Assembly (NCBI GenBank): GCA_016699365.1 | Contig: CP064973.1 | Coordinates: 301,684 to 365,683, forward strand | Reading direction: 5' to 3' | DNA: 64,000 bases | Source: Candidatus Nomurabacteria bacterium | GTDB taxonomy: Bacteria > Patescibacteriota > Minisyncoccia > Phycocordibacterales > UBA9973 | In this document: positions 7,957 to 48,889 of the stretch, piece after piece | Numbering within the stretch: position 1 is the stretch's first letter | Layout of the letters: each line of letters opens with the position of its first letter | Notes under the pieces: generated by a model | Told to the model about the DNA's origin: nothing | What the model saw: only the letters and a program-made list of their open reading frames with translations | The model's database searches: none | Made by a program: the position numbers and the translations under genes

Positions 7957-8336
7957 ATTTGTTTTTTCTTATTACTTTTTTAAAAAAGTAATGCAAAAAC
8001 TTCTTTGGGTATATTAAAAATCTAGCTCACTACACTCAGGCTCGTTAAAAATATTAACTCGTTTCACTCAAACAGAATATTTTTTACTTCGTAACACTCG
8101 CCTTCGTGTGTTCGTAGACAATTTTTAATATAAGCCAAAGCTAGGACCCAAAGGATTCTGAGTTCTTAAATAACCCAATCCACACTTTCTAAAAAGCCTT
8201 GCGCAGGCGGGTAGCCGAGCAGAGCAAAAATCCAGCAGGATTTTATGCGTGCTTTTTAAAAGTGATGGATAAAATAAAAGTTTTCTAGAAACTAAGTTAT
8301 ATAAAACCACGAATGTGATATGGGTTTTGTATAAAA
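7957..8336. repeat. Structured intergenic element, copy A (homologous to the element at 15351-15700; candidate ncRNA or MITE-like repeat)
   Basis: It shares with copy B the 22-nt AT palindrome (ATTACTTTTTT/AAAAAAGTAAT), CAAAAACTTCTTTG, CTCG..TTAAAA.TATTAACTC, TCAAACAGAATA.TTTT and CG.AAC..TCG.C.TC.T. No plausible ORF. Confidence 0.45.
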
Positions 8337-8363
8337 GAAAAAATCCGCTTTGCGGATTTTTTC
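8337..8363. terminator. Second exact copy of the 27-nt terminator hairpin; acts as the terminator for the convergent minus-strand M23 peptidase gene
   Basis: Identical to 7930-7956; located 17 nt downstream of the minus-strand stop codon at 8380. Confidence 0.65.
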
Positions 8364-8379
8364 TTTTCAGAGTTTTTAT

Positions 8380-9447
8380 TTAAAATGGATTTTTTGCTCC
8401 ACGAATCTCGAAGTGCAAGTGTGGTCCTGTTGATCTTCCTGTGTTTCCGACAGCACCTATTACTTGTCCTTGGGTGACTGTTGCTCCCAAAGGAACAGAC
8501 ACTTTTGACATGTGTGCGTATAAAGTTTGAGTTCCGTTTGAGTGTTTTATAACCACATAACTTCCATATCCTCCACCCCATCCTCCTGATCTGGAAACAA
8601 TAACTGTTCCACTTGCTGATGCATATATTGGAGTTCCAACCGGTGCTGCAATATCTATACCGTTAAATCCATGAAGTCCTTGGGATTTTCTTCCACCAGA
8701 CAGTGGTCTGATGTAATAACCCTTCTGTTCAGGTGCACTCGTTCCCCAAGTTTTTTCTTTTTTACTACTAGAAGAAGATGTTTTGGTTGTTTTTGTTACT
8801 TTTGGTGCAGCTATTTCACCATCTGGTATAAGAAGTATTTCACCTGTTTTCAAAGATGCTGTTTCAATAATTCCATTAAATTGGGCTATTTCTTTTGCAT
8901 CCGCATTGAAATTCTTTGCAATACTAGATATTGTCTCACCCTTTTTAACAACATGTCTAACTCCTGTTATTGGCAGTATTGTTAACATCTGGCCTTCCTT
9001 TAGGCTATCTCCTTTTTTTAGATCGTTTGCCCACATTATTGTATTGGCAGAAACCCCATACATTTCCGCGATTGCTCCTATAGAATCTCCAGACCTTACA
9101 ACATACAGACTGATCTCGTCGCTTTCTGGGAAGTCATATTCTACAACGTCGGCTAGTGTTCCTAGTGGACCCACTTCAGATTTTAGAGCTCCGTCGCTTA
9201 TAGTTACAGTTTTCTCTATTAGAACTTGGTTTGGGTCTGGGCTATGATATGCCATCAAAATAGGCATTGTCTGTGAATTTTGCTCTATATTACTTGTCTC
9301 CGCATGTACTTCTGTTGTAGAAGATAGGCCAAAAATCGATAAAATATTGGCCTCTGTCCTAAGCGGGAATATGACGAAGGCTCCTATTATAGATATAGAA
9401 AAACAAACTTCTTTGGTAGGAAGCTTATTATATAAGGCTATTTTCAT
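8380..9447 (-). CDS. LysM-domain peptidase M23 (peptidoglycan endopeptidase)
   Basis: Signal peptide; two LysM repeats (YVVRSGDSIGAIAEMYGVS.., HVVKKGETISSIAKNF..); C-terminal M23 motifs HGFNGIDIAAPVGTPIYA and GRSTGPHLHFEIR. Confidence 0.8.
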   Translation of the reverse strand: MKIALYNKLPTKEVCFSISIIGAFVIFPLRTEANILSIFGLSSTTEVHAETSNIEQNSQTMPILMAYHSPDPNQVLIEKTVTISDGALKSEVGPLGTLADVVEYDFPESDEISLYVVRSGDSIGAIAEMYGVSANTIMWANDLKKGDSLKEGQMLTILPITGVRHVVKKGETISSIAKNFNADAKEIAQFNGIIETASLKTGEILLIPDGEIAAPKVTKTTKTSSSSSKKEKTWGTSAPEQKGYYIRPLSGGRKSQGLHGFNGIDIAAPVGTPIYASASGTVIVSRSGGWGGGYGSYVVIKHSNGTQTLYAHMSKVSVPLGATVTQGQVIGAVGNTGRSTGPHLHFEIRGAKNPF

Positions 9448-33420: not shown

Positions 33421-35071
33421 ATGCAATCGGGTGAATTACTAAAAAAACTATTAGAAAATAGAGGTGTAGACGAAGGTCAAATAGACTCTTTTTTGCTCCC
33501 AGACTACGAAAAGACTTTGCATGACCCTTTTTTATTCAAGGATATGGAGCGTGCGTGCGTGAGAATTTTTGAAGCTATAGATCAGAATCAAAAAATAGTT
33601 GTTTATGCAGATTATGATGCAGATGGAATTCCTGGGGCAGTTATATTCAATGATTTTTTCAAAAGATTGGGTATGAGAATTTTGATATATACATACCCGA
33701 TCGTCACGATGAGGGTTATGGTTTACATAAAAGCGCAGTAGATGAATTTATAAAACAAGGTGTATCGCTCATAATTACTGTTGATTTGGGTATTACCGCA
33801 GTGGAAGAAGTAAGAGATGCTCTTATTGGAGGAGTTGATGTGATTATTACCGATCACCATTTACCACACGCAGGAGTTCCAAGGGCTTTTGCAATCATCA
33901 ATCCTAAATACGATACAAATTATCCATTTGATGGACTTTGCGGAGCAGGAGTTGCTTTCAAGGTTGTGTGTGCGCTTATAAAAAAATATGGAGAATATTG
34001 GAATATAAAAGAAGGTTGGGAAAAGTGGACACTTGATATGGCAGGACTCGCCACCCTTTCTGATATGGTTCCATTGGTAGGTGAGAATAGAACCATTGCT
34101 TATTGGGGTCTTCATGTAATGCGTAAATCTCCTAGACCGGGGTTGGTGCATTTATTTAAAAAAGCGGGGATTAATATGCGCTATATCAATGAAGAAGATA
34201 TAACTTTTTCACTTACTCCTAGACTAAATGCTGCTTCACGTATGGCATCTCCTAAAAGTGCTTTTATGATGCTCGCAGAAAAAGATATTTTAAAAGCGCA
34301 GGGTTTTGCAGAATATCTTACTGGCATAAATGACGAAAGAAAGACAATAGTTGCTAGCATAATGAAAGATGTTCACAAGAACTTAGAAAAAAGAGAACTT
34401 TGTGAAGTTATAGTTATCGGTAATCCGTCTTGGCGAGTCGGGGTGCTGGGTCTTGTTGCTTCAAAAATATGTGAGACTTATAAACGTCCTGCTTTTGTTT
34501 GGGGTAGAGAGGGTGGAAAAGAGGAGGATGATGCTCCTATAAAAGGGTCTTGTAGATCAGATGGAAGTGTAAATATTGTTGAGCTCATGCAACTAGAAAG
34601 TGAATCTTTTGCTAGTTTTGGAGGACATGAAATGGCGGGAGGATTTAGTGTAAAAAGTGAGCATATACATTTTTTAGAAGATAAATTAGCATCTAAATTT
34701 TCATCGATTAAAAGAGATGTAAAAATAGATGACATAGCATATGATCTCGAGCTTAGTATAAGTGATATAAACAAAGGTAACTACAAATCCATAGATAGCC
34801 TATCCCCATATGGCCTTGGCAATCCAAAACCCATCTTTTTATTTAAGAGTGTAAAGATAGAATCTATGAAGCAATTTGGTAAAGAAAAAAATCATCTAGA
34901 GATGATATTTTCAGGAGGTGGTAAAAAAGTTAAAGCCATATCTTTTTTGACTCACCGCATGAGTATGGAGTTTTAGGGGAAGGTTTAAATGTAGATTTGT
35001 ACGCAACATTTGAGTTGTCTAGATTTGCAGGTAAAGAAGAGCTCCGCTTGAGAATAGTTGATATAAAATAA
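33421..35071 (+). pseudogene. recJ: recJ-like DHH-family single-stranded-DNA exonuclease interrupted by two -1 frameshifts, at a G3 run (~33669) and a T6 run (~34943)
   Basis: DHH motifs VVYADYDADG and ITDHH. The conserved IPDRHDEGYGL and the C-terminal ...HEYGVLGEGLNVDLYATFELSRFAGKEELRLRIVDIK continue in the adjacent frames. Confidence 0.6.
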
Positions 35072-36872: not shown

Positions 36873-38363
36873 ATGCCTGATAGATTATTTTATACAATTA
36901 CATTGGGTTTTATTTTAGGTGTAGCTCTCGAATCTTTTTTATTTATACCAGCAGAAATACTGGTTGTTTTTATTTGTGTGGCTATACCGCTTTTATTCAT
37001 ATCTTTTTTTGTGGAGAGGTTTAGAGAAATTTTTCTTGTACTTTCCATACTACTTGTGTCTGTATTTTTTGGGATATTGAGATTTCAAATTTATGAGAAC
37101 AATCATTTAAAAAAATTAGATTTGTTTTTGAATAAAAAAGTTGAGATCTTTGGTGTAATAGTAGATGAGCCAGACAGAAGAGAGAACAATCAAAAAATCC
37201 TAGTCCGGACAAGAGAAGTTGAAGGGCAGAGCATAGAATCAAATGTCCTTGCGACCACAGATCTATATCCAGTTTTTAAATATGGAGACATTGTGTCTGT
37301 ACAAGGAGTAATATCCAAGCCTGCAAATTTCGCCACCGATCAAGGTAAAGTTTTTGACTATATATCTTATCTAGGAAAAGACAATATATTCTATTTGATG
37401 CAAAAAGTTCAAATAGAACTAGTGGATCACGATGCGCCTTATAAATTTCAAGAAATATTATTTGAATTTAAAAATAGAATTATTAAAAATATTGAAAGTG
37501 TAATACCTGCTCCTGAGAGTACTTTTATGTCTGGGATTACACTTGGTGCACGTTCTGGTTTGCCTAGTAATATTCGTGATGAATTTATAAAGACCGGAAC
37601 AATACATATAGTTGCTTTGTCTGGGTATAACATATCAGTGGTTGCAAATGGTATTCAAAAGTTTTTTACTTTATTTTTATCTCGTTACGGCGCCTTGTCA
37701 TTTGGTGGGTTGTCTATAGTTTTGTTTGTGCTAATGAGTGGCGCAAGTTCTACGGCCATTAGAGCGGGGATCATGGCTATTCTTGTAATAATGGCTCGTT
37801 TTAGTGGTAAGGAATACGATATAAATCGCGGACTAGTTTTAGCGGCAGTTTTGATGATTTTGGCGAATCCTAAAACTTTAATCTTTGATATATCTTTTCA
37901 ACTATCTTTTTTGGCTACAATCGGAATTATATACATAACTCCCATAACTGAGATCTGGTTTTCTTTCATTAAAAAAAAGAGATTTGGTTGGCTCAGGGAA
38001 ATAATTGCTTCAACAGTGGCTGCTCAGATTGCTACCTTGCCTTTTATTGTTTACACAATGGGTAATCTTTCTATTATTTCTTTACCAATCAATATACTTA
38101 TTTTGCCTTTTATACCACTGGCAATGTATTTAGGTTTTTTAGTAGGAGTCCTAGGATTCATCGGGCAGTTCATGGCTTATCCTTTTGGCTTTTTAAGCAC
38201 AGTGCTTCTAGATAAAATTCTTTCTGTTATTAGTTATGGTGCAAAGATACCCCTTTCTTCTGTGTATGTAAAAGAATTTTCTTTTTGGATTATATTTTTA
38301 ATATATGGAGTCATATTTTATTTTGTTTATCGTTGGCACAGGAGTAGAAAAAGCATATTTTAG
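36873..38363 (+). CDS. comEC: ComEC/Rec2 DNA-internalisation channel, membrane (competence) domain only
   Basis: Polytopic membrane protein; competence-domain motif GTIHIVALSGYNISVV; no MBL domain in this ORF. Confidence 0.7.
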   Translation: MPDRLFYTITLGFILGVALESFLFIPAEILVVFICVAIPLLFISFFVERFREIFLVLSILLVSVFFGILRFQIYENNHLKKLDLFLNKKVEIFGVIVDEPDRRENNQKILVRTREVEGQSIESNVLATTDLYPVFKYGDIVSVQGVISKPANFATDQGKVFDYISYLGKDNIFYLMQKVQIELVDHDAPYKFQEILFEFKNRIIKNIESVIPAPESTFMSGITLGARSGLPSNIRDEFIKTGTIHIVALSGYNISVVANGIQKFFTLFLSRYGALSFGGLSIVLFVLMSGASSTAIRAGIMAILVIMARFSGKEYDINRGLVLAAVLMILANPKTLIFDISFQLSFLATIGIIYITPITEIWFSFIKKKRFGWLREIIASTVAAQIATLPFIVYTMGNLSIISLPINILILPFIPLAMYLGFLVGVLGFIGQFMAYPFGFLSTVLLDKILSVISYGAKIPLSSVYVKEFSFWIIFLIYGVIFYFVYRWHRSRKSIF

Positions 38364-41984: not shown

Positions 41985-43886
41985 ATGAAGAGAATTTTAT
42001 TTTTATTTATAATATCAATATTTTTTCTAAATGTTTTTTCTGTGGTTGCTTCTGAGACTGAGGGTACTATTGATGTAGATAGTTATACTTCAAAAATATA
42101 TACACACGGGGAATTGATTTATTGGCTTGTCCCTGGCAATGCTGGTGCAGAAGATGTTCTTATAACTGATACTACTGTTGTTGGAGATATTTGGGGTCCT
42201 AGTTTAGGGTGGATTCATTTGGATCCGAATTCTGGTGGCGTTTTAAATGACCCGGATGCAGATTCTTCTCGAGGCCAGCTTTCGGGATATGCGTGGGGAG
42301 AGGGTGCAGGGTGGATAAATTTTGGTCCGTTTTCAAATAGCTCCACACAAGAAGTCTATATAGATATGGATGGAGAGTTTGTTGGTTTTGCATGGAGTGA
42401 AAACTATGGCTGGATACAATTTGACTGTGGTGTTACAGGAGCTTGCGTAAAGACTGATTGGAGACCTAAAGATGCTAGAGATGGGGACACCACTGGGGGT
42501 GGTGGGGGCAATCCTCCAAGTTTATGTTCTGATGTAAATGCTACAAATTACGGTGGAAGTCTTCCTTGTACATATATAATTTCTATTTGTTCTGATGTTG
42601 CTGCAGCTAACTTCGGCGGCGCATCACCTTGTAATTATCCGCCTAGTGAATGTGTAGGGGTGGAATGTAATCCACCAGAAGAACAAGATGTGTGTGGAGA
42701 TTTGTTTGCTACAAATTACGGCGGATCGTTACCTTGTAATTATTCACCTAGTGAATGTGTTGGCGCAGAATGTAATCCACCAGAAACTTGCACGGGTGAT
42801 GATTGTGTTCCACCACCTCCACCACCTACCGATATAGACGTAGAAGATTGTGTTGGTATTGGTTGTGTTGCAGATGATGGTATCAATTTTATTGATGATC
42901 TGTCAGGAGGAGTAGAAGATTATATAAACAGTGCAGATGGAGGTCTAGCGACTAGAATTTTTACTGGTTTTGCTCTTACAACTAGTGCTGTTATATCGAT
43001 TGCTTCGCTGTTGTTCATGAACCCACTCTCACTCTCTGAACTTGTTTTTATTCCTTTTAGATTGTGGTCGCTACTACTGGCAGCATTTGGATTATCAAAA
43101 CGCCGTCCACCATGGGGAACTGTCTACGATTCTATAACCAAGCAACCTCTTGATCCGGCGTATGTTGTTTTGTATGACAAATATGGAAGTGAAGTATCAA
43201 CATCTATAACTGATCTAGATGGACGTTTCGGCTTCTTGGTTCCAGGTGGAATATATAAAATAATCGCCAATAAAACTAACTATAAATTTCCTTCAGAAAA
43301 ATTAGCTGGCCAGAAGAAAGATGAGCTCTATCAAGATTTGTATTTTGGCGAAGAATTAGAGGTTACAGAAAATTCTCCGATTACAAAAAATATTCCTATG
43401 GATCCAATAAACTTTGATTGGAATGAATTTGCAAAGAAACAACAAAAACTGATGAAGTTCTATTCAAGACGTGATGCTATTTTCAGACAAATATCTGACA
43501 CTTTATTTGCGGCTGGATTCTTTATATCTTTTATTGCGTTTCTAGTATCTCCTGTTTTGTACAATATAATTATATTTAGTTTATATATATTACTGTTTAT
43601 TCTTAGAGAGGTTGGATATAAAGCACATAAGTTGGGTGGAATTGTTGATAAGGCAACTGGTCTACCTCTGTCGTATGCAATATTGAGAGTTTATTCTGTG
43701 GCAAATAACCAGGAAATCACACACAAGGTTGCTGATGCGAGAGGTCACTACTATTGTCTAATTTCAAATGGAAATTATTATGTGACAATAGAAAAGAAAA
43801 ACGAAGATTCTACTTATACAAAGGTTTTCGTATCACTTGCTTTTGAAGTTAAGGATGGTCACATAAAAGATGTATTCAGTGTATAA
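41985..43886 (+). CDS. Hypothetical membrane protein with a tandem Cys-rich repeat region and a C-terminal TM domain
   Basis: Signal/TM N-terminus; repeats CSDV.A.N(Y/F)GG..PC.Y...EC(V)G.ECNPPE; several TM helices near the C-terminus. Confidence 0.55.
   Translation: MKRILFLFIISIFFLNVFSVVASETEGTIDVDSYTSKIYTHGELIYWLVPGNAGAEDVLITDTTVVGDIWGPSLGWIHLDPNSGGVLNDPDADSSRGQLSGYAWGEGAGWINFGPFSNSSTQEVYIDMDGEFVGFAWSENYGWIQFDCGVTGACVKTDWRPKDARDGDTTGGGGGNPPSLCSDVNATNYGGSLPCTYIISICSDVAAANFGGASPCNYPPSECVGVECNPPEEQDVCGDLFATNYGGSLPCNYSPSECVGAECNPPETCTGDDCVPPPPPPTDIDVEDCVGIGCVADDGINFIDDLSGGVEDYINSADGGLATRIFTGFALTTSAVISIASLLFMNPLSLSELVFIPFRLWSLLLAAFGLSKRRPPWGTVYDSITKQPLDPAYVVLYDKYGSEVSTSITDLDGRFGFLVPGGIYKIIANKTNYKFPSEKLAGQKKDELYQDLYFGEELEVTENSPITKNIPMDPINFDWNEFAKKQQKLMKFYSRRDAIFRQISDTLFAAGFFISFIAFLVSPVLYNIIIFSLYILLFILREVGYKAHKLGGIVDKATGLPLSYAILRVYSVANNQEITHKVADARGHYYCLISNGNYYVTIEKKNEDSTYTKVFVSLAFEVKDGHIKDVFSV
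42525..42795 (+). repeat. Three diverged tandem repeats of ~90 nt encoding Cys-rich modules
   Basis: The nucleotide and protein motif repeats three times: TGTTCTGATGT..GCTACAAATTACGG..CCTTGTAATTAT..AGTGAATGTGT. Confidence 0.5.
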
Positions 43887-43892
43887 GATAAA

Positions 43893-45614
43893 ATGTATAG
43901 ATTTAAAATTTTTAAAAAAAATATACTACGCGAAAACCGACTTCTAGTCATCGCACTTCTTTTTCTATTCGTCTTCTCTATAACAATCAGAGCTTTTGCA
44001 ACATATCCAGCAACTCCATTTGCTCCGTCTGATCAAGAAAACGATCCTTCTTGTTCTCCTGGTGATGCAAACTGTTATGTAACTCCTATGGCAATTGGGG
44101 AGACTGTGGGGACGGGGACACTCGGATCTGTTTTATTTCTTGGAACAGCAGGTATTTTAGCTGAAGACAATACGAATTTCTTTTGGGATGATACAAATAA
44201 TAGACTTGGTCTCGGTACAGCATCACCAGATACAATTTTAGATATCACAGGTTCTGGTGGTGGAGCACTTTTTACTTTTAATACTGGTGGTACAAACAAG
44301 ACTGCTCAAATAAACTTTGTTGATGCAAGTACGAGTAAGGCGGTTTTAGGATGGGATGGACCCAATGCTCGTTTTGAGCTTGATACGGATGAATCAATAT
44401 ATCTCGGGGATATGGCAACAGAAGATTATTATTTTTCTATTGAAAGAGGATCTTTTATGCTTACCGGTGGACAAACGAGTGTGTACAATTCAACTGGAGC
44501 TGACTTGGTTGTTAGTGGAGACAGTGACGGGGTTTCCGTTTCACCCGGTATAAATACTTTTGAGATGGCAATATATTCTAGTGCTGCAGGCATTATGCCT
44601 CTTTGGATAAATCTTGCTACGAGTCAGACTGCGAATGCTATCACTGTGACAGACAATGGAGGAAGTACTCTCACTGCGATTACTGCAGGCGGTCTTGTAC
44701 AAGCAACTTCTGGCTCAACAACAACTCCTGGTTTTGGATTTGTGGGTGATACTGATAACGGTTTATACCGTGCTACTACAAATGAAATAGGCTTAGTCAC
44801 AGCAAGCACTGAACGTTTACGCATCGATGCTGCTGGAGAAATAGGAATAGGAGATACAACACCAGACTACTTACTTGATGTTGAAAACACAGGAGTAGAT
44901 ACAAATATATTTGCTCTAACTGATTCGGATGGTGCCTGTTTACACAATCCAGAAGCGGGAACCGAAACGGTAACTTGTTCTTCTGATGAAAGATTGAAGG
45001 AGAATATAGTCAATGCTGATCCGCTGTTGCCTTACTTTAGAGAATTTAATATTCGTGAGTATGACGTGCGCGCTTCGGGAGATCATATGGTTGGAGTTGT
45101 TGCACAAGAAGTCCAAGAAATATATCCCGATTTAGTAAAAATGGGTGGCAATGGTTTTTATACTGTTGAAATACCGAGCACTTGGCAAGTGATCAAAGCT
45201 ATACAGGAGCTTGATATATCTATTCAGAGTATCTCATCTCTTTCTCTTGAAAATGAAAGATCATTGGCAAGTATTATGATTGACTGGTTTTCCGATGCCG
45301 CAAACGGAATACAAACTTTTTTTGCTAGAGAAATACACACAAACGTATTATGTGTAGGAGAAGTGTGTGTCACTGAAGAAGAATTTTTAAATATTGTAAA
45401 TAAAAATAATGAATCTGTTGGTAATGAAGTATCTTCTGATCAGAATATAAATAGTGAAGATATTCCTTCTGAAGAAGATTCGATTACTCCGCTAGAAGAA
45501 GTAGTTATACCAAACGAGGAACCTCCTGTAGAAAGTGAACCAACTATTGTTCCAGATGAAGAAACCACACCTGAAATTCCAGATCTTGAAGAAGAACCTC
45601 TAATATTGGAATAA
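43893..45614 (+). CDS. Membrane-anchored tail-fibre-like protein with a C-terminal intramolecular-chaperone (peptidase S74-like) domain
   Basis: N-terminal TM segment; Gly/Thr-rich repeat body; C-terminal motifs SSDERLKENIV and GDHMVGVVAQEVQEIYP. Confidence 0.6.
   Translation: MYRFKIFKKNILRENRLLVIALLFLFVFSITIRAFATYPATPFAPSDQENDPSCSPGDANCYVTPMAIGETVGTGTLGSVLFLGTAGILAEDNTNFFWDDTNNRLGLGTASPDTILDITGSGGGALFTFNTGGTNKTAQINFVDASTSKAVLGWDGPNARFELDTDESIYLGDMATEDYYFSIERGSFMLTGGQTSVYNSTGADLVVSGDSDGVSVSPGINTFEMAIYSSAAGIMPLWINLATSQTANAITVTDNGGSTLTAITAGGLVQATSGSTTTPGFGFVGDTDNGLYRATTNEIGLVTASTERLRIDAAGEIGIGDTTPDYLLDVENTGVDTNIFALTDSDGACLHNPEAGTETVTCSSDERLKENIVNADPLLPYFREFNIREYDVRASGDHMVGVVAQEVQEIYPDLVKMGGNGFYTVEIPSTWQVIKAIQELDISIQSISSLSLENERSLASIMIDWFSDAANGIQTFFAREIHTNVLCVGEVCVTEEEFLNIVNKNNESVGNEVSSDQNINSEDIPSEEDSITPLEEVVIPNEEPPVESEPTIVPDEETTPEIPDLEEEPLILE
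43929..44101 (+). repeat. 173-nt segment 100% identical to 45731-45903 (5' cassette shared by the two fibre-protein paralogs)
   Basis: Exact nucleotide identity by direct comparison. Confidence 0.8.
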
Positions 45615-45676
45615 GTATTGGTTTTAAACATATTCAAGAGATATAATCTATTTTTTGAGATATAATAGATTTGTAG

Positions 45677-48600
45677 ATGTTTAAACAAAAGATTTTAGGA
45701 AAAATCAAAAAGTTCTACACTTTTTCAGTGCGCGAAAACCGACTTCTAGTCATCGCACTTCTTTTTCTATTCGTCTTCTCTATAACAATCAGAGCTTTTG
45801 CAACATATCCAGCAACTCCATTTGCTCCGTCTGATCAAGAAAACGATCCTTCTTGTTCTCCTGGTGATGCAAACTGTTATGTAACTCCTATGGCAATTGG
45901 GGAAGTTGTTGGTTCAGGTGACGACAATTCAGTGCTCTTTATTGATACCAATGGTGACCTTGCAGAAGATAGTACCAATTTTTATTTCGATGATTCCACA
46001 GATACTCTATATATAGACAATGTTACGCTGGCAAATAATTTAGAAATAACTACAACTTCAAGTTCTACTGTCGGTGTTTTAACAAAAGACGGAACACGTT
46101 TTTTGCATTCATATAAACCAGCTGGAACAAATGACAACTTGTTTTTGGGTAAAGGAGCAGGAAACTTTACACTCTCTGCAACATCAAACTTCAATGCCAA
46201 TACTGGTATAGGAGAGAACTCACTCGCAACACTTTCTACTGGTTATTTCAACACTGCCTTGGGTACAGCTGCTCTTAGATATACAACTACCGGAAACAAT
46301 AATACTGCTGTTGGGTTACAGGCAGGTAATCGTATTACTACAGGTACATATAACGTGGCTGTTGGGCGAGATGCTTTATACGGAGCAGGCTCACCTTCTA
46401 GTGCATCGGGCTCATACAACGTCGCTTTGGGTTATGCTCCTTTGTATTCTCTTTCAACAGGATCAAATAACGTAGCTGTTGGATATCAAGCAGGTTTGAA
46501 TTCATCTTCTGCAGGGAACAATGTGTTTCTTGGATATGAAGCAGGTCACGACATTACAACAGAATCAGGAAATATTTTTATTGGATATCAAGCAGGAGCT
46601 GACGCAACTGGGTCTGATCAGTTATACATAGAAAACACCAACAGTGCATCACCGCTTATTTTTGGAGATTTTGCAAATGATTATGTAAATATAAATGGAA
46701 GACTTGGTGTTGGAACATCGCCATTGTTGAAATTGGACGTAGCAGGTTCGGGTAGATTTACAGGAGCAGCTACCTCTGTTTTAACAGGATCTATAGATGC
46801 TACTGCTTCTACTACTGTTACAGGTGTCGGTACTCTTTTCTCAACAGAGCTTGTAGTTGGGGATAGAATTACAGTTTCAGGAGAATCACGAACTGTTACA
46901 GCGATTGCTTCGGACACAAGCTTAACTGTTGACACTGCATTTACTGATACAGCAAACGATGCATCGCCCGACAAACTTGCAGCGATCTTTATTGCGCGCG
47001 GATCTGACAGTACTCTCACTATGGTCCAAAACAATTTTGGAAACATTGGAATAGGAACTAGTAGTCCAGATTTTGAAGTGGAAGTGGTTTCAGCTTCTCA
47101 GAACGTTGAAGTAGTTGCTTCTGGATACAATGGTAGAAAGCCAGTTTTTGCAGGACGAAGTGCAAATGGAACAGAAGCTGTGCCAACCGCAACAGTTGCG
47201 ACAGATATACTTGCAGAATTTGCAGGTCAAGGGTATGGGGCGACAGGTTTTGCTCCTTCATCCACTGCATCTATTAGAGTTGTTGCAGAAGAAACTTTTG
47301 ATGATGCAGGATATGGTTCACAACTTTTGTTTCGCACTACTCCAAACAACTCAACCACCCTTACTTCTCGTATGGTTATAACAGCAGATGGCAATGTGGG
47401 TATTGGGGACACGGGTCCGGATAACATTCTTGATATTGCGGCAGATGCTGCTGCTGGTATTGCAATTAGCGCATCGGGTGTTGATGTTGATCCTTATATA
47501 AAATTTGAGCTCGTAGACAATACACCATCTTTCACTATAGGCGTAGATGATTCTGATAGTGATAGTTTCAAGATATCTACTACAGCACTTGGGACAAGTG
47601 ATAGATTTATTATTGATTCATCTGGAAACATAAATGTTGGAGGAGATGGGACACCAGGATCACTTTTCTCTGTTGGTTCAACTTCACAATTTCAAGTTGG
47701 TTCGTCTGGTTCGATCGATGCCGTTACAACAATCACAACATCGGGAGGAATAATCATTGGATCTTCTGGAACAGGTGCTCTTAGTGTTGGAACTACTTCT
47801 GGTGTTTACAGAACAACAAGTGCTGGTAGTAACGTTACGCCTCAAACAGTTTTTGATGTAGATAACTCAAACTCCACCGCTGGTTCTCAAGCATATATTT
47901 TTGATACAAATAGTGGGTTTGTTTTTACTGCCGCAAACGGTGCACGTCGTATTGCACGAGCAGCAATTGATATTACCAATCTTACAAATACCGCAGGTTC
48001 TGAAACAGGTGATTTAGCTTTTTCTACTAAACCATCAGGTGCTGCAATAACCGAACGCTTACGCATCGATGCATCAGGAGAAGTTGGTATTGGAGACACA
48101 ACTCCAGACTATCTGCTTGATGTTGAGAATACCGGGGTTGATACAGATGTATTTGCTCTCACTGATTCTGATGGTGCTTGTTTGCACAATCCTGAAGCTG
48201 GATCTGAGACCGTAACTTGTTCTTCTGATGAAAGATTGAAGGAGAATATAGTTGACGCGAATAGTATCTTGCCTTACTTCATGGATTTTCGTATTAGAGA
48301 ATACGATGTTTTGGCATCCGGTGATCATATGACTGGAGTTATTGCTCAGGAGGTAATGGAGGTTTACCCAGAACTTGTCAGAATGGGTGGCAATGGTTTT
48401 TATACTGTTGAAATACCGAGCACTTGGCAAGTAATAAAAGGTATTCAAGAGCTAAAGATATCAATTGATGATTTAGAATCTTTTGATTTAGAGAATGAAA
48501 ATTCACTAGCACATAAGATTATTCTCTGGCTAAATGACACTACAAATGGAATCCAAAATATATTTGCAAAACGAGTGACTGTTGAAGAGCTCTGTGTTGA

Positions 48601-48889
48601 GGATGTTTGTATAACAAAAGATGATCTTTTGGATATTTTAGATGATAGTGGTTCGTATACTCCTGTTGTGAATGATGGTGGTAATACAGAAGAAACTCCT
48701 ATAGATGATCCAATTATTGAAGAAGAACCAGTAGATTCAGAAGGAGATGGTGTAATTGAAGAGGAAAATACTCCAGAGGAGCCGCCAGTAGAAGAAGAAA
48801 TTGTCTCAGATGAAAATACCGAAGAATTGGGTGGTGGTACTGAAGGGGATCCACAATCCGAAGAGGGTGCAGGTGGAGAAGTCATATAA
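45677..48889 (+). CDS. Membrane-anchored tail-fibre-like protein (1070 aa), paralog of 43893..45614, with the same S74-like C-terminal domain
   Basis: Identical N-terminal 58 aa; body of (N/G)..(A/V)(V/L)G..AG-type repeats; C-terminal motifs SSDERLKENIV and GDHMTGVIAQEV. Confidence 0.6.
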   Translation: MFKQKILGKIKKFYTFSVRENRLLVIALLFLFVFSITIRAFATYPATPFAPSDQENDPSCSPGDANCYVTPMAIGEVVGSGDDNSVLFIDTNGDLAEDSTNFYFDDSTDTLYIDNVTLANNLEITTTSSSTVGVLTKDGTRFLHSYKPAGTNDNLFLGKGAGNFTLSATSNFNANTGIGENSLATLSTGYFNTALGTAALRYTTTGNNNTAVGLQAGNRITTGTYNVAVGRDALYGAGSPSSASGSYNVALGYAPLYSLSTGSNNVAVGYQAGLNSSSAGNNVFLGYEAGHDITTESGNIFIGYQAGADATGSDQLYIENTNSASPLIFGDFANDYVNINGRLGVGTSPLLKLDVAGSGRFTGAATSVLTGSIDATASTTVTGVGTLFSTELVVGDRITVSGESRTVTAIASDTSLTVDTAFTDTANDASPDKLAAIFIARGSDSTLTMVQNNFGNIGIGTSSPDFEVEVVSASQNVEVVASGYNGRKPVFAGRSANGTEAVPTATVATDILAEFAGQGYGATGFAPSSTASIRVVAEETFDDAGYGSQLLFRTTPNNSTTLTSRMVITADGNVGIGDTGPDNILDIAADAAAGIAISASGVDVDPYIKFELVDNTPSFTIGVDDSDSDSFKISTTALGTSDRFIIDSSGNINVGGDGTPGSLFSVGSTSQFQVGSSGSIDAVTTITTSGGIIIGSSGTGALSVGTTSGVYRTTSAGSNVTPQTVFDVDNSNSTAGSQAYIFDTNSGFVFTAANGARRIARAAIDITNLTNTAGSETGDLAFSTKPSGAAITERLRIDASGEVGIGDTTPDYLLDVENTGVDTDVFALTDSDGACLHNPEAGSETVTCSSDERLKENIVDANSILPYFMDFRIREYDVLASGDHMTGVIAQEVMEVYPELVRMGGNGFYTVEIPSTWQVIKGIQELKISIDDLESFDLENENSLAHKIILWLNDTTNGIQNIFAKRVTVEELCVEDVCITKDDLLDILDDSGSYTPVVNDGGNTEETPIDDPIIEEEPVDSEGDGVIEEENTPEEPPVEEEIVSDENTEELGGGTEGDPQSEEGAGGEVI
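45731..45903 (+). repeat. Second copy of the 173-nt identical cassette
   Basis: Exact identity to 43929-44101. Confidence 0.8.

What the first reader, a model, noticed from the sequence alone, without database searches (positions are those of the whole stretch)
43893..48889. Two tandem paralogous membrane-anchored fibre proteins sharing a 173-nt perfectly identical 5' cassette
The genes at 43893 and 45677 encode proteins whose first ~58 residues after the extreme N-terminus are encoded by 100% identical DNA (43929-44101 = 45731-45903). Their repeat-rich bodies are unrelated in length (573 vs 1070 aa). Their C-terminal ~150 aa are again homologous but diverged (~75-80%). Perfect identity of only the 5' module implies recent gene conversion, or a recombination substrate that allows exchange of fibre bodies behind a constant anchor, reminiscent of surface-protein variation systems.
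Basis: seen in the sequence. Interest (0 to 1): 0.6.

Follow-up and report, generated by a model that had tools for sequence, protein, structure and literature searches.

The report
Gene-converted leader module of tandem fibre genes
Two neighbouring genes of an ultra-small (Patescibacteria) bacterium encode phage-tail-fibre-like surface fibres, and their shared, perfectly identical 173-base start module is kept identical by repeated copying between the two genes (gene conversion), a familiar process seen here in an uncharacterised fibre family whose middle parts are swapped between strains.

Summary
Window 43929-44101 equals 45731-45903: 173 nt, in frame in both genes, against saturated flanks (dS above 1).

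The cause is concerted evolution by gene conversion. In a syntenic genome (L001) the two orthologues also share a near-identical cassette. That cassette differs from the window's at 18 sites, and every one of these is shared by both paralogues of a genome. With an outgroup (L016), 6 changes are derived in the window lineage and 8 in the L001 lineage. Short extra tracts lie near the S74 cleavage site. Three further colinear assemblies carrying both cassettes, plus a 518-bp contig across the A/B junction, exclude assembly collapse.

The genes encode a probable Sec signal peptide, a Cys-loop N-module, a variable beta-rich shaft, a Peptidase_S74 self-cleaving chaperone (SDxxxK) and an acidic tail. 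They sit among housekeeping genes. The closest characterised relatives are the Bdellovibrio MAT fibres.

I found no programmed switch: no recombinase, no inverted repeats, no silent copies, no alternative arrangement within the strain. Between strains and species, however, gene A comes and goes and fibre bodies are exchanged. Several breakpoints fall at or just 3' of the cassette's 3' end, so 'variable bodies behind a constant module' holds on evolutionary time.

This is a known kind of process in an undescribed Patescibacteria family, of moderate interest.

The parts
41985..43886 (+). Conserved upstream gene (633 aa): signal peptide, Cys-rich tandem repeats, hydrophobic segments, CarboxypepD_reg domains. 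It is the constant neighbour of the fibre gene(s). Context only; a candidate envelope partner.
   Evidence: same position in L001, L016, L044-L047, L049
43893..45614 (+). Gene A (573 aa), the short fibre protein. It starts 6 nt after the stop of the upstream gene, so it is probably co-transcribed with it.
   Evidence: 100% identical protein P0001, named 'tail fiber domain-containing protein [Candidatus Nomurabacteria bacterium]' by NCBI
43893..44000 (+). Probable Sec signal peptide of A (aa 1-36; basic n-region, 16-residue hydrophobic core, A-F-A|T site).
   Evidence: Ala at -1 invariant in the family; only hydrophobic segment; AF2 helix 16-34. Cleavage is inferred, not tested.
43929..44101 (+). 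Cassette, copy in A: 173 nt encoding aa 13-70 (the third base of codon 70 lies outside), i.e. the signal-peptide core and cleavage site plus the first 34 residues of the mature protein, including the Cys loop DPSCSPGDANC. This is the gene-conversion tract.
44970..45010 (+). 41-nt run identical to 48212-48252. It spans the S74 cleavage motif (VTCSSDERLKENI) and lies inside a stretch where sites group by genome (10 AB|A2B2 against 1 AA2|BB2). The comparable run in L001 is significant in the permutation test. Candidate short second conversion tract.
44982..45377 (+). C-terminal intramolecular chaperone / Peptidase_S74 domain of A (aa 364-495). Catalytic Ser364 (44982-44984) and Lys369 lie in the SDERLK motif. 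Release would leave a mature fibre of aa 37-363.
45140..45190 (+). 51-nt run identical to 48382-48432 (third short conversion tract).
45615..45676 (+). A-B intergenic region with a conserved promoter-like element (TTTTTTGAGATATAATAG; TATAAT at 45661-45666, 10 nt before the ATG). It is conserved upstream of B-type genes in four genomes.
   Evidence: promoter function is inferred
45677..48889 (+). Gene B (1070 aa), the long fibre protein.
45677..45802 (+). Probable signal peptide of B (aa 1-42).
45731..45903 (+). Cassette, copy in B (aa 19-76), identical to 43929-44101. Its 3' end lies at or just before a recurrent module breakpoint in the family (about 45904-45961 at DNA level).
48212..48252 (+). 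B copy of the 41-nt identical run.
48224..48619 (+). Peptidase_S74 chaperone domain of B (aa 850-981; Ser850, Lys855).
48382..48432 (+). B copy of the 51-nt identical run.

Best explanation
What the genes are. A and B are old tandem paralogues in the chromosome of a Patescibacteria (Candidatus Nomurabacteria-like) bacterium. Each encodes an exported fibre related to phage tail fibres. The order of parts is: Sec signal peptide, a short conserved Cys-loop N-module, a variable beta-rich shaft, a conserved stalk, a C-terminal Peptidase_S74 intramolecular chaperone that should drive trimer folding and then cut itself off at Ser364 (A) or Ser850 (B), and an acidic tail.

Why the cassette is identical. 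The 173-nt cassette encodes the signal-peptide core, the cleavage site and the first 34 mature residues. It is kept identical in the two genes by recurrent, non-reciprocal homologous recombination between the two direct copies (intrachromosomal gene conversion, i.e. concerted evolution).

What limits the tract. On the 5' side it stops where homology ends, because the first 12 codons of A and the first 18 of B are unrelated. On the 3' side it stops where divergence becomes too high. Shorter patches are also converted around the S74 cleavage site.

Inferred reason. Both fibres must use the same export and cleavage route and probably the same cell-proximal docking partner. Strong purifying selection therefore keeps the module similar enough to go on recombining, and conversion makes the two copies co-evolve.

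Wider pattern. The same conserved ends serve as homology arms on evolutionary time. Between strains and species, shaft segments, N-modules and the whole of gene A are exchanged, gained or lost.

Inferred biological role. The fibres are adhesins for contact with host or partner cells, by analogy with the Bdellovibrio MAT fibres.

Shown: the identity, concerted evolution in two lineages, the domain architecture, the mosaicism and the non-phage context. Inferred: RecA dependence, signal-peptide cleavage, trimer formation and autoproteolysis, surface display and an adhesive role.
For: Identity and mosaic divergence
- 173/173 nt are identical, against dS above 1.3 in the flanks.

Concerted evolution
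- In syntenic L001 (GCA_964634365.1), A2 and B2 share their own cassette with 1 difference.
- All 18 informative cassette sites group paralogues within a genome and none group orthologues. In the C-terminal 576 nt, 56 sites group orthologues, 13 group by genome and 10 show the third pattern.
- With L016 as outgroup, 6 shared-derived changes fall in the window lineage and 8 in the L001 lineage. L016 is more distant in three genes.
- The L001 tract is 192 nt, and its extra 19 nt are A-type, which implies A2-to-B2 transfer.
- A Sawyer-type permutation test finds further A-B and A2-B2 tracts (p below 1e-4).

Not an artefact
- Three ENA contigs, 99.8% identical and colinear with the window, carry both cassettes. 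They share one SNP set, so they represent one second strain.
- L014 confirms the A-3'/B-cassette junction.

Not an RNA element
- No Rfam hit; cassette fold z = 0.24.

Protein family
- PF13884 scores 34-35 bits against a cut-off of 22.
- S364, D365 and K369 are invariant in 19 homologues.
- The C-terminal profile hits solved S74/ICA domains 8JOV, 6F45, 7DC3, 3GUD and 8HQZ.
- The top Foldseek hits of the domain model are 7DC3, 3GUD and 3GW6.
- PHROG tail-fibre families match.
- The shafts hit Bdellovibrio MAT structures 8OML, 8ON4 and 8OND, whose architecture is described in PMC10769870.
- The N-module lies at the extreme N-terminus of nearly all of the 102 cluster representatives that matched, 73-2359 aa long. 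All 7 sampled long members (523-2359 aa) end in S74.

Context
- The genes lie between the L28/M50/membrane-protein genes and rpsL-rpsG-fusA in several syntenic genomes. Relatives elsewhere lie between pheST and gyrB. None is in a prophage.

Mosaicism
- Protein-level mosaics.
- The window B body is 81-88% identical at nt level to L048, which has an unrelated N-module, but only 65-75% identical to syntenic L001, which shares the N-module at 86-95%.

Recombination and uptake genes
- ComEC and RecJ lie nearby.
Against: - Only one other genome (L001) carries both A and B, so 'recurrent' rests on two lineages plus the short 3' tracts.
- The rest of the 705-kb genome could not be inspected for further cassette-bearing paralogues.
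- Signal-peptide cleavage, trimerisation, autoproteolysis and surface display are untested.
- The full-length AF2 monomer model was poor (pLDDT 46.7).
- Homology of the N-module to the MAT N-domain was not tested.
- The cassette is also unusually conserved between genomes at synonymous sites, which conversion alone does not explain. Codons 13-76 of neighbouring genes show a similar though weaker trend.
Confidence: 0.85

Rival explanations
1. Programmed antigenic or host-range variation. The identical cassettes would be the substrate of a dedicated switch (site-specific inversion or deletion, or pilE/pilS-like cassette donation) that places alternative fibre bodies behind one expressed constant 5' end within a clonal population.
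For: - Two direct repeats of 173 nt lie 1.8 kb apart and could recombine.
- The family is strongly mosaic, with breakpoints at or near the cassette end.
- Gene A is present or absent among close relatives.
Against: - No inverted repeats between 42 and 50 kb.
- No invertase or recombinase in the conserved neighbourhood.
- Both genes are full-length with their own starts, and B has its own conserved promoter-like region, so there are no silent cassettes.
- The repeats are direct, so recombination would delete rather than switch.
- The window and three colinear ENA contigs (two strains, 99.8% identical) show the same arrangement.
- A-less relatives (L049, L016) retain the B-type first 18 codons and upstream region, not the A-5'/B-body chimera that cassette recombination would leave. 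L047 also lacks A, but it carries a different N-module, so it does not bear on this test.
Confidence: 0.05
2. Assembly artefact: one real copy was used twice (repeat collapse or a chimeric contig), so the perfect identity is not biological.
For: - The source is a metagenome-assembled genome.
- 173 nt is close to short-read length.
- A related tiny contig (L014) does end in a fold-back artefact.
Against: - Three more contigs from different ENA samples reproduce both cassettes, each embedded in its unique flanks.
- L001 has its own cassette pair, with 18 lineage-specific sites, one internal difference and a longer tract, which collapse would not create.
- Both ORFs stay in frame and give family-typical N-termini.
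Confidence: 0.01
3. Selection at the nucleotide level: the cassette holds a DNA or RNA element (regulatory site, mRNA structure, codon-usage signal for export) that is constrained base by base, so identity reflects constraint rather than copying.
For: The cassette is less diverged at synonymous sites than the adjacent membrane gene in three genome comparisons: dS 0.02 against 0.28, 0.51 against 1.13, and 0.72 against 1.87 (Fisher p 4e-4 to 9e-3).
Against: - Between genomes the cassette still differs at 19-20 of 174 sites (window against L001) and at about 29 of 173 (against L016). These are mostly synonymous, yet they are always shared by both paralogues of a genome. Constraint cannot explain that pattern.
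- No Rfam match, and no excess RNA folding (z 0.24).
- Codons 13-76 of neighbouring genes have pooled pS 0.50 against 0.37 for the cassette (p 0.11).
Confidence: 0.05
4. Prophage or tailocin remnant: the two genes are phage tail-fibre genes left in the chromosome, and the shared 5' part is the baseplate-attachment domain typical of phage fibre paralogues.
For: - PHROG tail-fibre hits and the S74 domain.
- NCBI's name for the protein is 'tail fiber domain-containing protein'.
- The mosaicism resembles that of phage fibre genes.
Against: - Both proteins, and about 100 representative relatives, begin with a signal-peptide-like leader.
- The neighbours are ribosomal-protein, EF-G, M50 protease, pheST and gyrB genes, in synteny conserved across divergent genomes. 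No phage structural, integrase or lysis genes were called.
Confidence: 0.04

Closest known systems
Helicobacter pylori babA/babB and homA/homB (segmental concerted evolution of adhesin paralogues by RecA-dependent gene conversion; Pride and Blaser 2002, as reviewed in PMC3960876)
   Same: Paralogous surface-adhesin genes in which one terminal segment shows within-genome identity but between-genome divergence, while the ligand-binding middle stays distinct. Recombination between paralogues also creates chimeric alleles (for the literature; for this locus).
   Different: - Here the homogenised segment is at the 5' end (signal peptide plus N-module) rather than the 3' end.
- The paralogues are adjacent and tandem, not at distant loci.
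- The proteins are S74-chaperoned fibres, not outer-membrane beta-barrels.
- No phase-variable repeats were seen.
- No experimental conversion rate is available.
Bdellovibrio bacteriovorus MAT (mosaic adhesive trimer) fibres, S74 subfamily, e.g. Bd3182 (Caulton et al. 2024, PMC10769870)
   Same: - Cell-encoded (non-phage) tail-fibre-like proteins.
- A signal peptide, a conserved N-terminal cell-proximal part, a mosaic shaft, and a C-terminal S74 chaperone/protease with an SDxxxK motif.
- Direct sequence similarity of the shafts to solved MAT fragments: 8OML 5e-10, 8ON4 2e-7, 8OND 5e-3.
- Found in a bacterium that lives on other cells.
   Different: - A different phylum, with a monoderm-type envelope.
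- The conserved N-part is a short Cys-loop module of about 35 residues followed by a common 'SVLF...DNTNFFWDD' motif. It is not shown to be homologous to the roughly 130-aa MAT N-domain.
- The stalk just before the cleavage site is conserved rather than variable.
- Only two copies are visible here, against 21 in Bdellovibrio.
- Surface display and ligand binding are untested.
Mosaic phage tail-fibre genes and the invertible tail-fibre segments of phages Mu and P1 (constant N-terminal part joined to alternative variable parts); cited from general knowledge
   Same: A constant N-terminal attachment part with exchangeable distal parts. Module boundaries act as recombination points. S74 intramolecular chaperones occur in phage fibres and spikes (PDB hits 8JOV, 6F45, 3GUD, 8HQZ).
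   Different: No invertase, no inverted repeats and no phage context. Exchange is seen only between genomes, not as a switch within one genome.

Membership tests
Peptidase_S74 / C-terminal intramolecular chaperone (auto-processing) domain | Significant match to the family profile | tested here: met
   PF13884 scores 34.1 bits (A) and 35.3 bits (B) against a cut-off of 22. The family profile A6 hits solved S74/ICA domains 8JOV (2e-9), 6F45 (5e-7), 7DC3 (9e-5), 3GUD and 8HQZ.
Peptidase_S74 / C-terminal intramolecular chaperone (auto-processing) domain | Catalytic Ser-Lys dyad in an SDxxxK motif | tested here: met
   SDERLK is present at A 364-369 and B 850-855. S364, D365 and K369 are invariant in 19 aligned homologues.
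Peptidase_S74 / C-terminal intramolecular chaperone (auto-processing) domain | Characteristic fold | tested here: inconclusive
   For the domain model (pLDDT 69), the top 11 Foldseek PDB hits are all intramolecular chaperone domains (7DC3 E 3e-4, prob 1.0; 3GUD; 3GW6). TM-scores are only about 0.3, because a monomer model was compared with swapped trimers. The full-length model was unusable.
Peptidase_S74 / C-terminal intramolecular chaperone (auto-processing) domain | Trimerisation-dependent autoproteolytic release | not testable with these tools
   Needs expression of the wild type and a Ser-to-Ala mutant.
Bdellovibrio-type MAT fibre superfamily | N-terminal signal peptide | tested here: inconclusive
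   The features fit: a basic n-region, a 16-residue hydrophobic core, a conserved small-x-Ala site with invariant Ala at -1, and no other hydrophobic segment. No dedicated predictor was available and cleavage was not shown.
Bdellovibrio-type MAT fibre superfamily | Conserved beta-rich N-terminal domain of about 130 aa after the signal peptide, homologous among members | not tested
   This family has a conserved N-module (102 representatives). No MAT N-domain sequence or structure was available for comparison; the PDB holds only C-terminal fragments.
Bdellovibrio-type MAT fibre superfamily | Shaft homologous to MAT beta-helix/prism shafts | tested here: met
   phmmer of B against 8OML_A gives 5e-10 (99 aligned residues) and against 8ON4_A 2e-7; A against 8OND_A (Bd2133) gives 4.5e-3.
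Bdellovibrio-type MAT fibre superfamily | Mosaic: one end conserved, the rest exchanged among members | tested here: met
Bdellovibrio-type MAT fibre superfamily | Surface display and binding of target-cell surface molecules | not testable with these tools
   Experimental.
Concerted evolution by intragenomic gene conversion (bab/hom-type) | In the tract, paralogues within a genome are more alike than orthologues between genomes, and the reverse holds outside it | tested here: met
   Cassette: 18 sites group by genome and 0 by orthology. C-terminal part: 56 by orthology, 13 by genome, 10 third pattern.
Concerted evolution by intragenomic gene conversion (bab/hom-type) | Independent events in separate lineages (derived changes shared by both copies in each lineage; different tract ends) | tested here: met
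   There are 6 and 8 polarised shared-derived sites. The tracts are 173 and 192 nt. Outgroup status was checked. Additional short tracts are significant by permutation.
Concerted evolution by intragenomic gene conversion (bab/hom-type) | Dependence on homologous recombination (RecA) | not testable with these tools
   Only RecJ and ComEC were seen in the window. recA was not looked for outside the window.
Programmed surface-variation systems (invertible tail-fibre segments, shufflons, pilE/pilS, Mycoplasma vsa/vsp) | Dedicated recombinase and/or inverted recombination sites | tested here: not met
   No inverted-repeat pairs between 42 and 50 kb. No recombinase among the called genes of the syntenic 21 kb or the sampled window ORFs.
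Programmed surface-variation systems (invertible tail-fibre segments, shufflons, pilE/pilS, Mycoplasma vsa/vsp) | Silent, promoterless or truncated donor copies beside one expression site | tested here: not met
   Both genes are complete ORFs with start codons. A abuts the upstream gene and B has a conserved promoter-like region.
Programmed surface-variation systems (invertible tail-fibre segments, shufflons, pilE/pilS, Mycoplasma vsa/vsp) | Alternative arrangements within one strain population | tested here: not met
   The window and three ENA contigs are colinear and 99.8% identical. This covers assemblies only; raw reads were not available.

The most novel reading that the evidence does not exclude
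The N-module may be a genome-specific 'address tag' of a modular cell-recognition system in ultra-small episymbiotic Patescibacteria. The tag would combine the export signal with a cell-proximal docking peptide. In this reading the S74-chaperoned fibres, MAT-like and phage-like, are the organism's host-contact organelles. Every fibre paralogue of a cell must carry the resident tag, which gene conversion enforces. The ligand-binding shafts would be traded between strains and species by homologous recombination through the conserved ends, perhaps after natural DNA uptake through ComEC. That would let host range change the way phages change theirs.
Probability: 0.3. Interest if true: 0.7.

Novelty: new member of a known kind. 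Interest (0 to 1): 0.42.

Why it matters
The mechanism is textbook: gene conversion homogenising one segment of adhesin paralogues. The value lies in where it occurs.

How candidate-phyla-radiation bacteria recognise and hold on to partner cells is largely unknown. The searchable literature did not link them to S74 fibres: searches returned nothing relevant, and the eight papers that mention both terms were not opened.

This locus shows a widespread, chromosomally encoded family. About 100 representative clusters (50% identity) match the leader, nearly all at their extreme N-terminus. The architecture resembles the prey-recognition fibres of Bdellovibrio. One end is kept constant by conversion, and the bodies are demonstrably swapped between lineages.

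That gives concrete, testable candidates for host-contact structures. It also gives a clean natural example of module boundaries that coincide with conversion-tract ends.

Tried and rejected
Searches that returned nothing or little
- An exact 50-mer of the cassette in genome contigs gave no hits.
- A degenerate 29-mer in metagenome contigs gave no hits.
- The word-index protein search with the 64-aa cassette peptide returned only an 88-aa fragment.
A 4-sequence alignment worked, but the metagenome hits were only distant relatives without tandem pairs.
- The exact products of window A and B were not on record, because the database strain differs by a few SNPs.

Structure
- The full-length AF2 monomer of A had pLDDT 46.7, and its Foldseek hits were meaningless.

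Ideas tested and dropped
- RNA element in the cassette: no Rfam hit and fold z = 0.24.
- DGR or reverse transcriptase near the locus: none in the window, although one lies near relatives in L006-L008.
- Shared cassettes between the two S74 genes of L002 and L011: none, because they belong to different subfamilies.
- The divergent end of L014 as a possible alternative junction: it is a fold-back of the cassette itself.
- Reduced synonymous divergence of the cassette as proof of nucleotide-level function: not clearly different from the 5' parts of neighbouring genes.
- PF26696, listed for many distant hits, is absent from the local Pfam copy and could not be identified.

Full report
**1. The observation**

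ORF listing and repeat finding show two same-strand genes, A (43893-45614, 573 aa) and B (45677-48889, 1070 aa). They share a direct repeat. Base-by-base comparison gives 173/173 identity for 43929-44101 against 45731-45903. There is no extension to the left, the match breaks at position 174, and both copies are in frame 0.

The flanks are not merely somewhat diverged; they are saturated.
- The 10 codons before the cassette are 47% identical.
- The 31 codons after it are 56% identical.
- The alignable C-terminal 192 codons are 73% identical, with dS 1.3.

At that background the chance of 173 consecutive matches is about 2e-24. The window holds no third copy.

Identity is also not wholly confined to the 5' module (see section 3).

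**2. What the genes encode**

- Both proteins match Pfam Peptidase_S74, the 'chaperone of endosialidase', above the curated cut-off, and several PHROG tail-fibre families.
- An alignment of 19 homologues has S364, D365 and K369 invariant. This is the SDxxxK Ser-Lys dyad of this self-cleaving intramolecular chaperone.
- A profile of the C-terminal 165 residues finds solved S74/ICA domains: a phage tail fibre (8JOV), the S16 long tail fibre (6F45), the MyRF ICA domain (7DC3), phi29 gp12 (3GUD) and the T5 L-shaped fibre (8HQZ).
- A model of that domain (pLDDT 69) has only such chaperone domains as its top Foldseek hits, though with low TM-scores.
- The shafts hit crystal structures of Bdellovibrio 'mosaic adhesive trimer' (MAT) fibres: 8OML, 8ON4 and 8OND/Bd2133.
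- Caulton et al. describe MATs as cell-encoded, signal-peptide-bearing fibres with a conserved N-terminal cell-proximal domain and mosaic shafts and tips. One subfamily ends in an S74 domain with SDxxxK (PMC10769870).

The N-terminus carries the only hydrophobic segment of each protein. It has a basic n-region and a 16-residue core, and it ends in A-F-A|T. The -1 Ala is invariant and the -3 position is small across the family. I therefore read it as a cleavable Sec signal peptide rather than a membrane anchor. This is inference, since no dedicated predictor or experiment was available.

The mature N-terminus carries a conserved Cys loop (DPxCxPGDxxC). A full HMMER scan of 1.84 billion representatives found this leader module in 102 clusters, nearly always at residues 5-70 of proteins 73-2359 aa long. 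All 7 sampled long members (523-2359 aa) end in S74.

**3. Why the cassette is identical**

The identical protein A is on record as a Candidatus Nomurabacteria protein on a 705-kb contig. Its best relative, P0002, lies in a syntenic locus of another Patescibacteria genome (L001, GCA_964634365.1). The gene order there is L28, M50 protease, a 629-aa membrane protein, A2, B2, rpsL, rpsG, fusA.

A2 and B2 also share the cassette, with one difference. Their cassette differs from the window's at 18 sites, and at every one of these the two paralogues of a genome agree. No site groups A with A2 against B with B2. In the C-terminal 576 nt, 56 sites group orthologues, 13 group by genome and 10 show the third pattern.

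A third syntenic genome (L016) has a single B-type gene. It is more distant in three genes, so it serves as outgroup. It polarises 6 of the 18 changes to the window lineage and 8 to the L001 lineage. Both lineages therefore fixed changes in both copies after they split, which requires conversion in each lineage.

The L001 tract is 192 nt long, and its extra 19 nt are A-type, so B2 was the recipient there. The 5' limit is the same in both genomes and coincides with the end of homology, because A and B have unrelated first 12 and 18 codons.

A Sawyer-type permutation on polymorphic sites finds further significant paralogue-paralogue runs in the 3' part.
- A-B at C-terminal nt 348-391 and A2-B2 at nt 126-177 are both significant (p below 1e-4).
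- The window has exact runs of 41 nt (44970-45010 = 48212-48252, spanning the cleavage motif) and 51 nt (45140-45190 = 48382-48432).
- One SNP between two 99.8%-identical strains even hints at a very recent A-to-B patch.

**4. Artefact and other rivals**

Assembly artefact is excluded.
- Three ENA contigs from different samples are colinear with the window over 6.1-9.6 kb at 99.8% identity. They carry both cassettes unchanged. They share one set of 10-13 SNPs, so they represent a second strain.
- A 518-bp contig confirms the A-3'/B-5' junction. Its odd last 30 nt are a fold-back of the cassette, which is an artefact.

An RNA element is unlikely: there is no Rfam hit and no excess folding.

Nucleotide-level constraint cannot explain the within-genome identity, because the cassette differs at about 10-17% of sites between genomes, mostly at synonymous positions. 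I did find that the cassette is less diverged at synonymous sites than the adjacent membrane gene in three comparisons. Codons 13-76 of neighbouring genes show a similar if weaker tendency. I leave this as unexplained rather than as evidence of a further function.

A prophage origin is contradicted by the leaders and by the conserved housekeeping context in several syntenic genomes. Relatives elsewhere sit between pheST and gyrB.

**5. Is it a variation system?**

Within a genome I found none of the defining parts.
- There are no inverted repeats and no recombinase nearby.
- There are no truncated or silent copies.
- B has its own upstream element, TTTTTTGAGATATAATAG, with its TATAAT 10 nt before the ATG. 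It is conserved in four genomes.
- A starts 6 nt after the upstream gene.

Recombination between the direct cassettes would delete A's body and fuse A's first 12 codons to B. The A-less relatives L049 and L016 instead keep the B-type first 18 codons and upstream region, so they did not arise that way. L047 also lacks A, but it carries a different N-module.

Between genomes, however, the locus is a recombination hot spot.
- Gene A is absent in the closest relative, L049 (membrane-gene dS 0.28), but present in the more distant L001.
- The L049 B allele (P0221) has residues about 105-440 replaced, while its cassette differs at 1 of 173 nt.
- P0224 is the same kind of allele of B2, with the breakpoint right after the cassette.
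- P0219/P0222 and P0220 have B-type bodies 80-95% identical to B from 'VGSGDDNS' onward, behind two unrelated N-modules.
- At DNA level the window B body is 81-88% identical to L048, whose N-module is 40-55% identical. It is only 65-75% identical to syntenic L001, whose N-module is 86-95% identical. The switch falls between about 45904 and 45961.
- Other members show the same mosaicism, and one has a 99.6% internal 236-nt duplication.

It is not correct as a switch.

**6. Mechanism and comparison with what is known**

The best-supported account is this. A and B are old paralogues (dS saturated). The cassette peptide is far closer to that of the single B-type gene of L016 (50/58) than to the module of P0003, the relative with an A-type body (21/56). 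This suggests that A's original leader was overwritten from B. Since then the module has been homogenised repeatedly in both directions.

Functionally, both fibres must pass the same export and cleavage step and probably dock to the same cell-side partner. That maintains the sequence similarity that conversion needs.

The closest evolutionary precedent is the segmental concerted evolution of H. pylori babA/babB and homA/homB (PMC3960876). The closest protein system is the S74 subfamily of the Bdellovibrio MATs.

Membership of Peptidase_S74 is met by profile and catalytic motif. Membership of MAT is only partly testable: the shaft, S74 and mosaic criteria are met, while N-domain homology was not tested.

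I found no paper linking Patescibacteria or CPR bacteria to such fibres. One search listed eight papers that mention both Patescibacteria and 'tail fiber', but I did not open them.

**7. Verdict**

The gene-conversion reading is strongly supported, the programmed-variation reading is not, and 'membrane-anchored' is doubtful.

The phenomenon is a known kind. The family and its modular behaviour in Patescibacteria are undescribed and give a concrete lead to host-contact structures. Interest is moderate.

Noticed in passing
window 41985-43886: A 633-aa protein with a signal peptide, Cys-rich tandem repeats (42539-42785), hydrophobic segments at aa 325-369 and 502-547, and CarboxypepD_reg domains. 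It is the constant upstream neighbour of the fibre gene(s) in every syntenic locus, with or without gene A, and gene A starts 6 nt after its stop. Possible envelope partner of the fibres.
   Followed up: partly
L049:1-1300 (Logan SRR17347195), against window 43877-45621: The closest relative (membrane gene 94% nt identity, dS 0.28) lacks gene A entirely and keeps about 30 nt of intergenic sequence that the window lacks. L016 and L047 also lack A, whereas the more distant L001 has it. So A is a presence/absence polymorphism of unclear direction.
   Followed up: partly
window 45731-45903, against L049, L001 and L016: The cassette is 2- to 10-fold less diverged at synonymous sites than the adjacent membrane gene in three genome comparisons (Fisher p 4e-4 to 9e-3). 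Codons 13-76 of neighbouring genes are also somewhat low. The cause is unresolved: export-related codon constraint, inter-strain recombination, or chance.
   Followed up: partly
window 45615-45676; L001:11750-11812; L016:5940-6000; L049:1170-1223: The sequence TTTTTTGAGATATAATAG, followed by 8 nt ending GTAG and then the ATG, is conserved upstream of all B-type genes. The TATAAT ends 10 nt before the start codon, which suggests a very short or absent leader.
   Followed up: partly
window 48418, 48421 (in the 51-nt run 48382-48432): A second strain (three ENA contigs, 99.8% identical) differs from the window at these two B positions. At 48418 the window B carries the A-type base, whereas the ENA strain, L049 and L047 carry the other base. 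This hints at a very recent A-to-B micro-conversion.
   Followed up: partly
L041:6391-6626 and 8227-8462: A 1316-aa family member from a JGI metagenome contains an internal 236-nt direct repeat at 99.6% identity, which points to a recent intragenic duplication or conversion in another member.
   Followed up: no
L006:7080-7970, L007:6945-7970, L008:2831-3721: A reverse-transcriptase (RVT_1) gene lies two genes upstream of the B-type fibre gene P0011 in three contigs. It could be a retroelement or a diversity-generating element. Nothing comparable is in the window.
   Followed up: no
L002:717-1994, L011:6462-7748, L048:3313-4584: A second, shorter S74 fibre subfamily (423-428 aa) has a different leader without the Cys loop. 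It sits after a rhodanese gene in several related genomes.
   Followed up: no
L014:489-518: The last 30 nt of this low-coverage ENA contig are the reverse complement of cassette positions 44027-44056. This is a fold-back assembly artefact, not an alternative junction.
   Followed up: yes
window 33786-34976 and 36873-38363: RecJ and ComEC (DNA-uptake channel) genes lie 5-10 kb upstream. This is compatible with uptake-driven allele replacement at the fibre locus.
   Followed up: no
window 46284-46596: Five copies of a diverged repeat with a 51-nt period (some neighbours 117 nt apart) lie in the body of B, encoding a 17-residue motif of the type NNxAxGxxAG. This is typical of beta-helical shafts and is the part replaced in allele P0221.
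   Followed up: no
window 45378-45611 and 48620-48886: Both proteins end in acidic, Pro/Glu-rich low-complexity tails after the chaperone domain, preceded by a conserved Cys pair (LCVxxVC). These would be released together with the chaperone. Their role is unknown.
   Followed up: no
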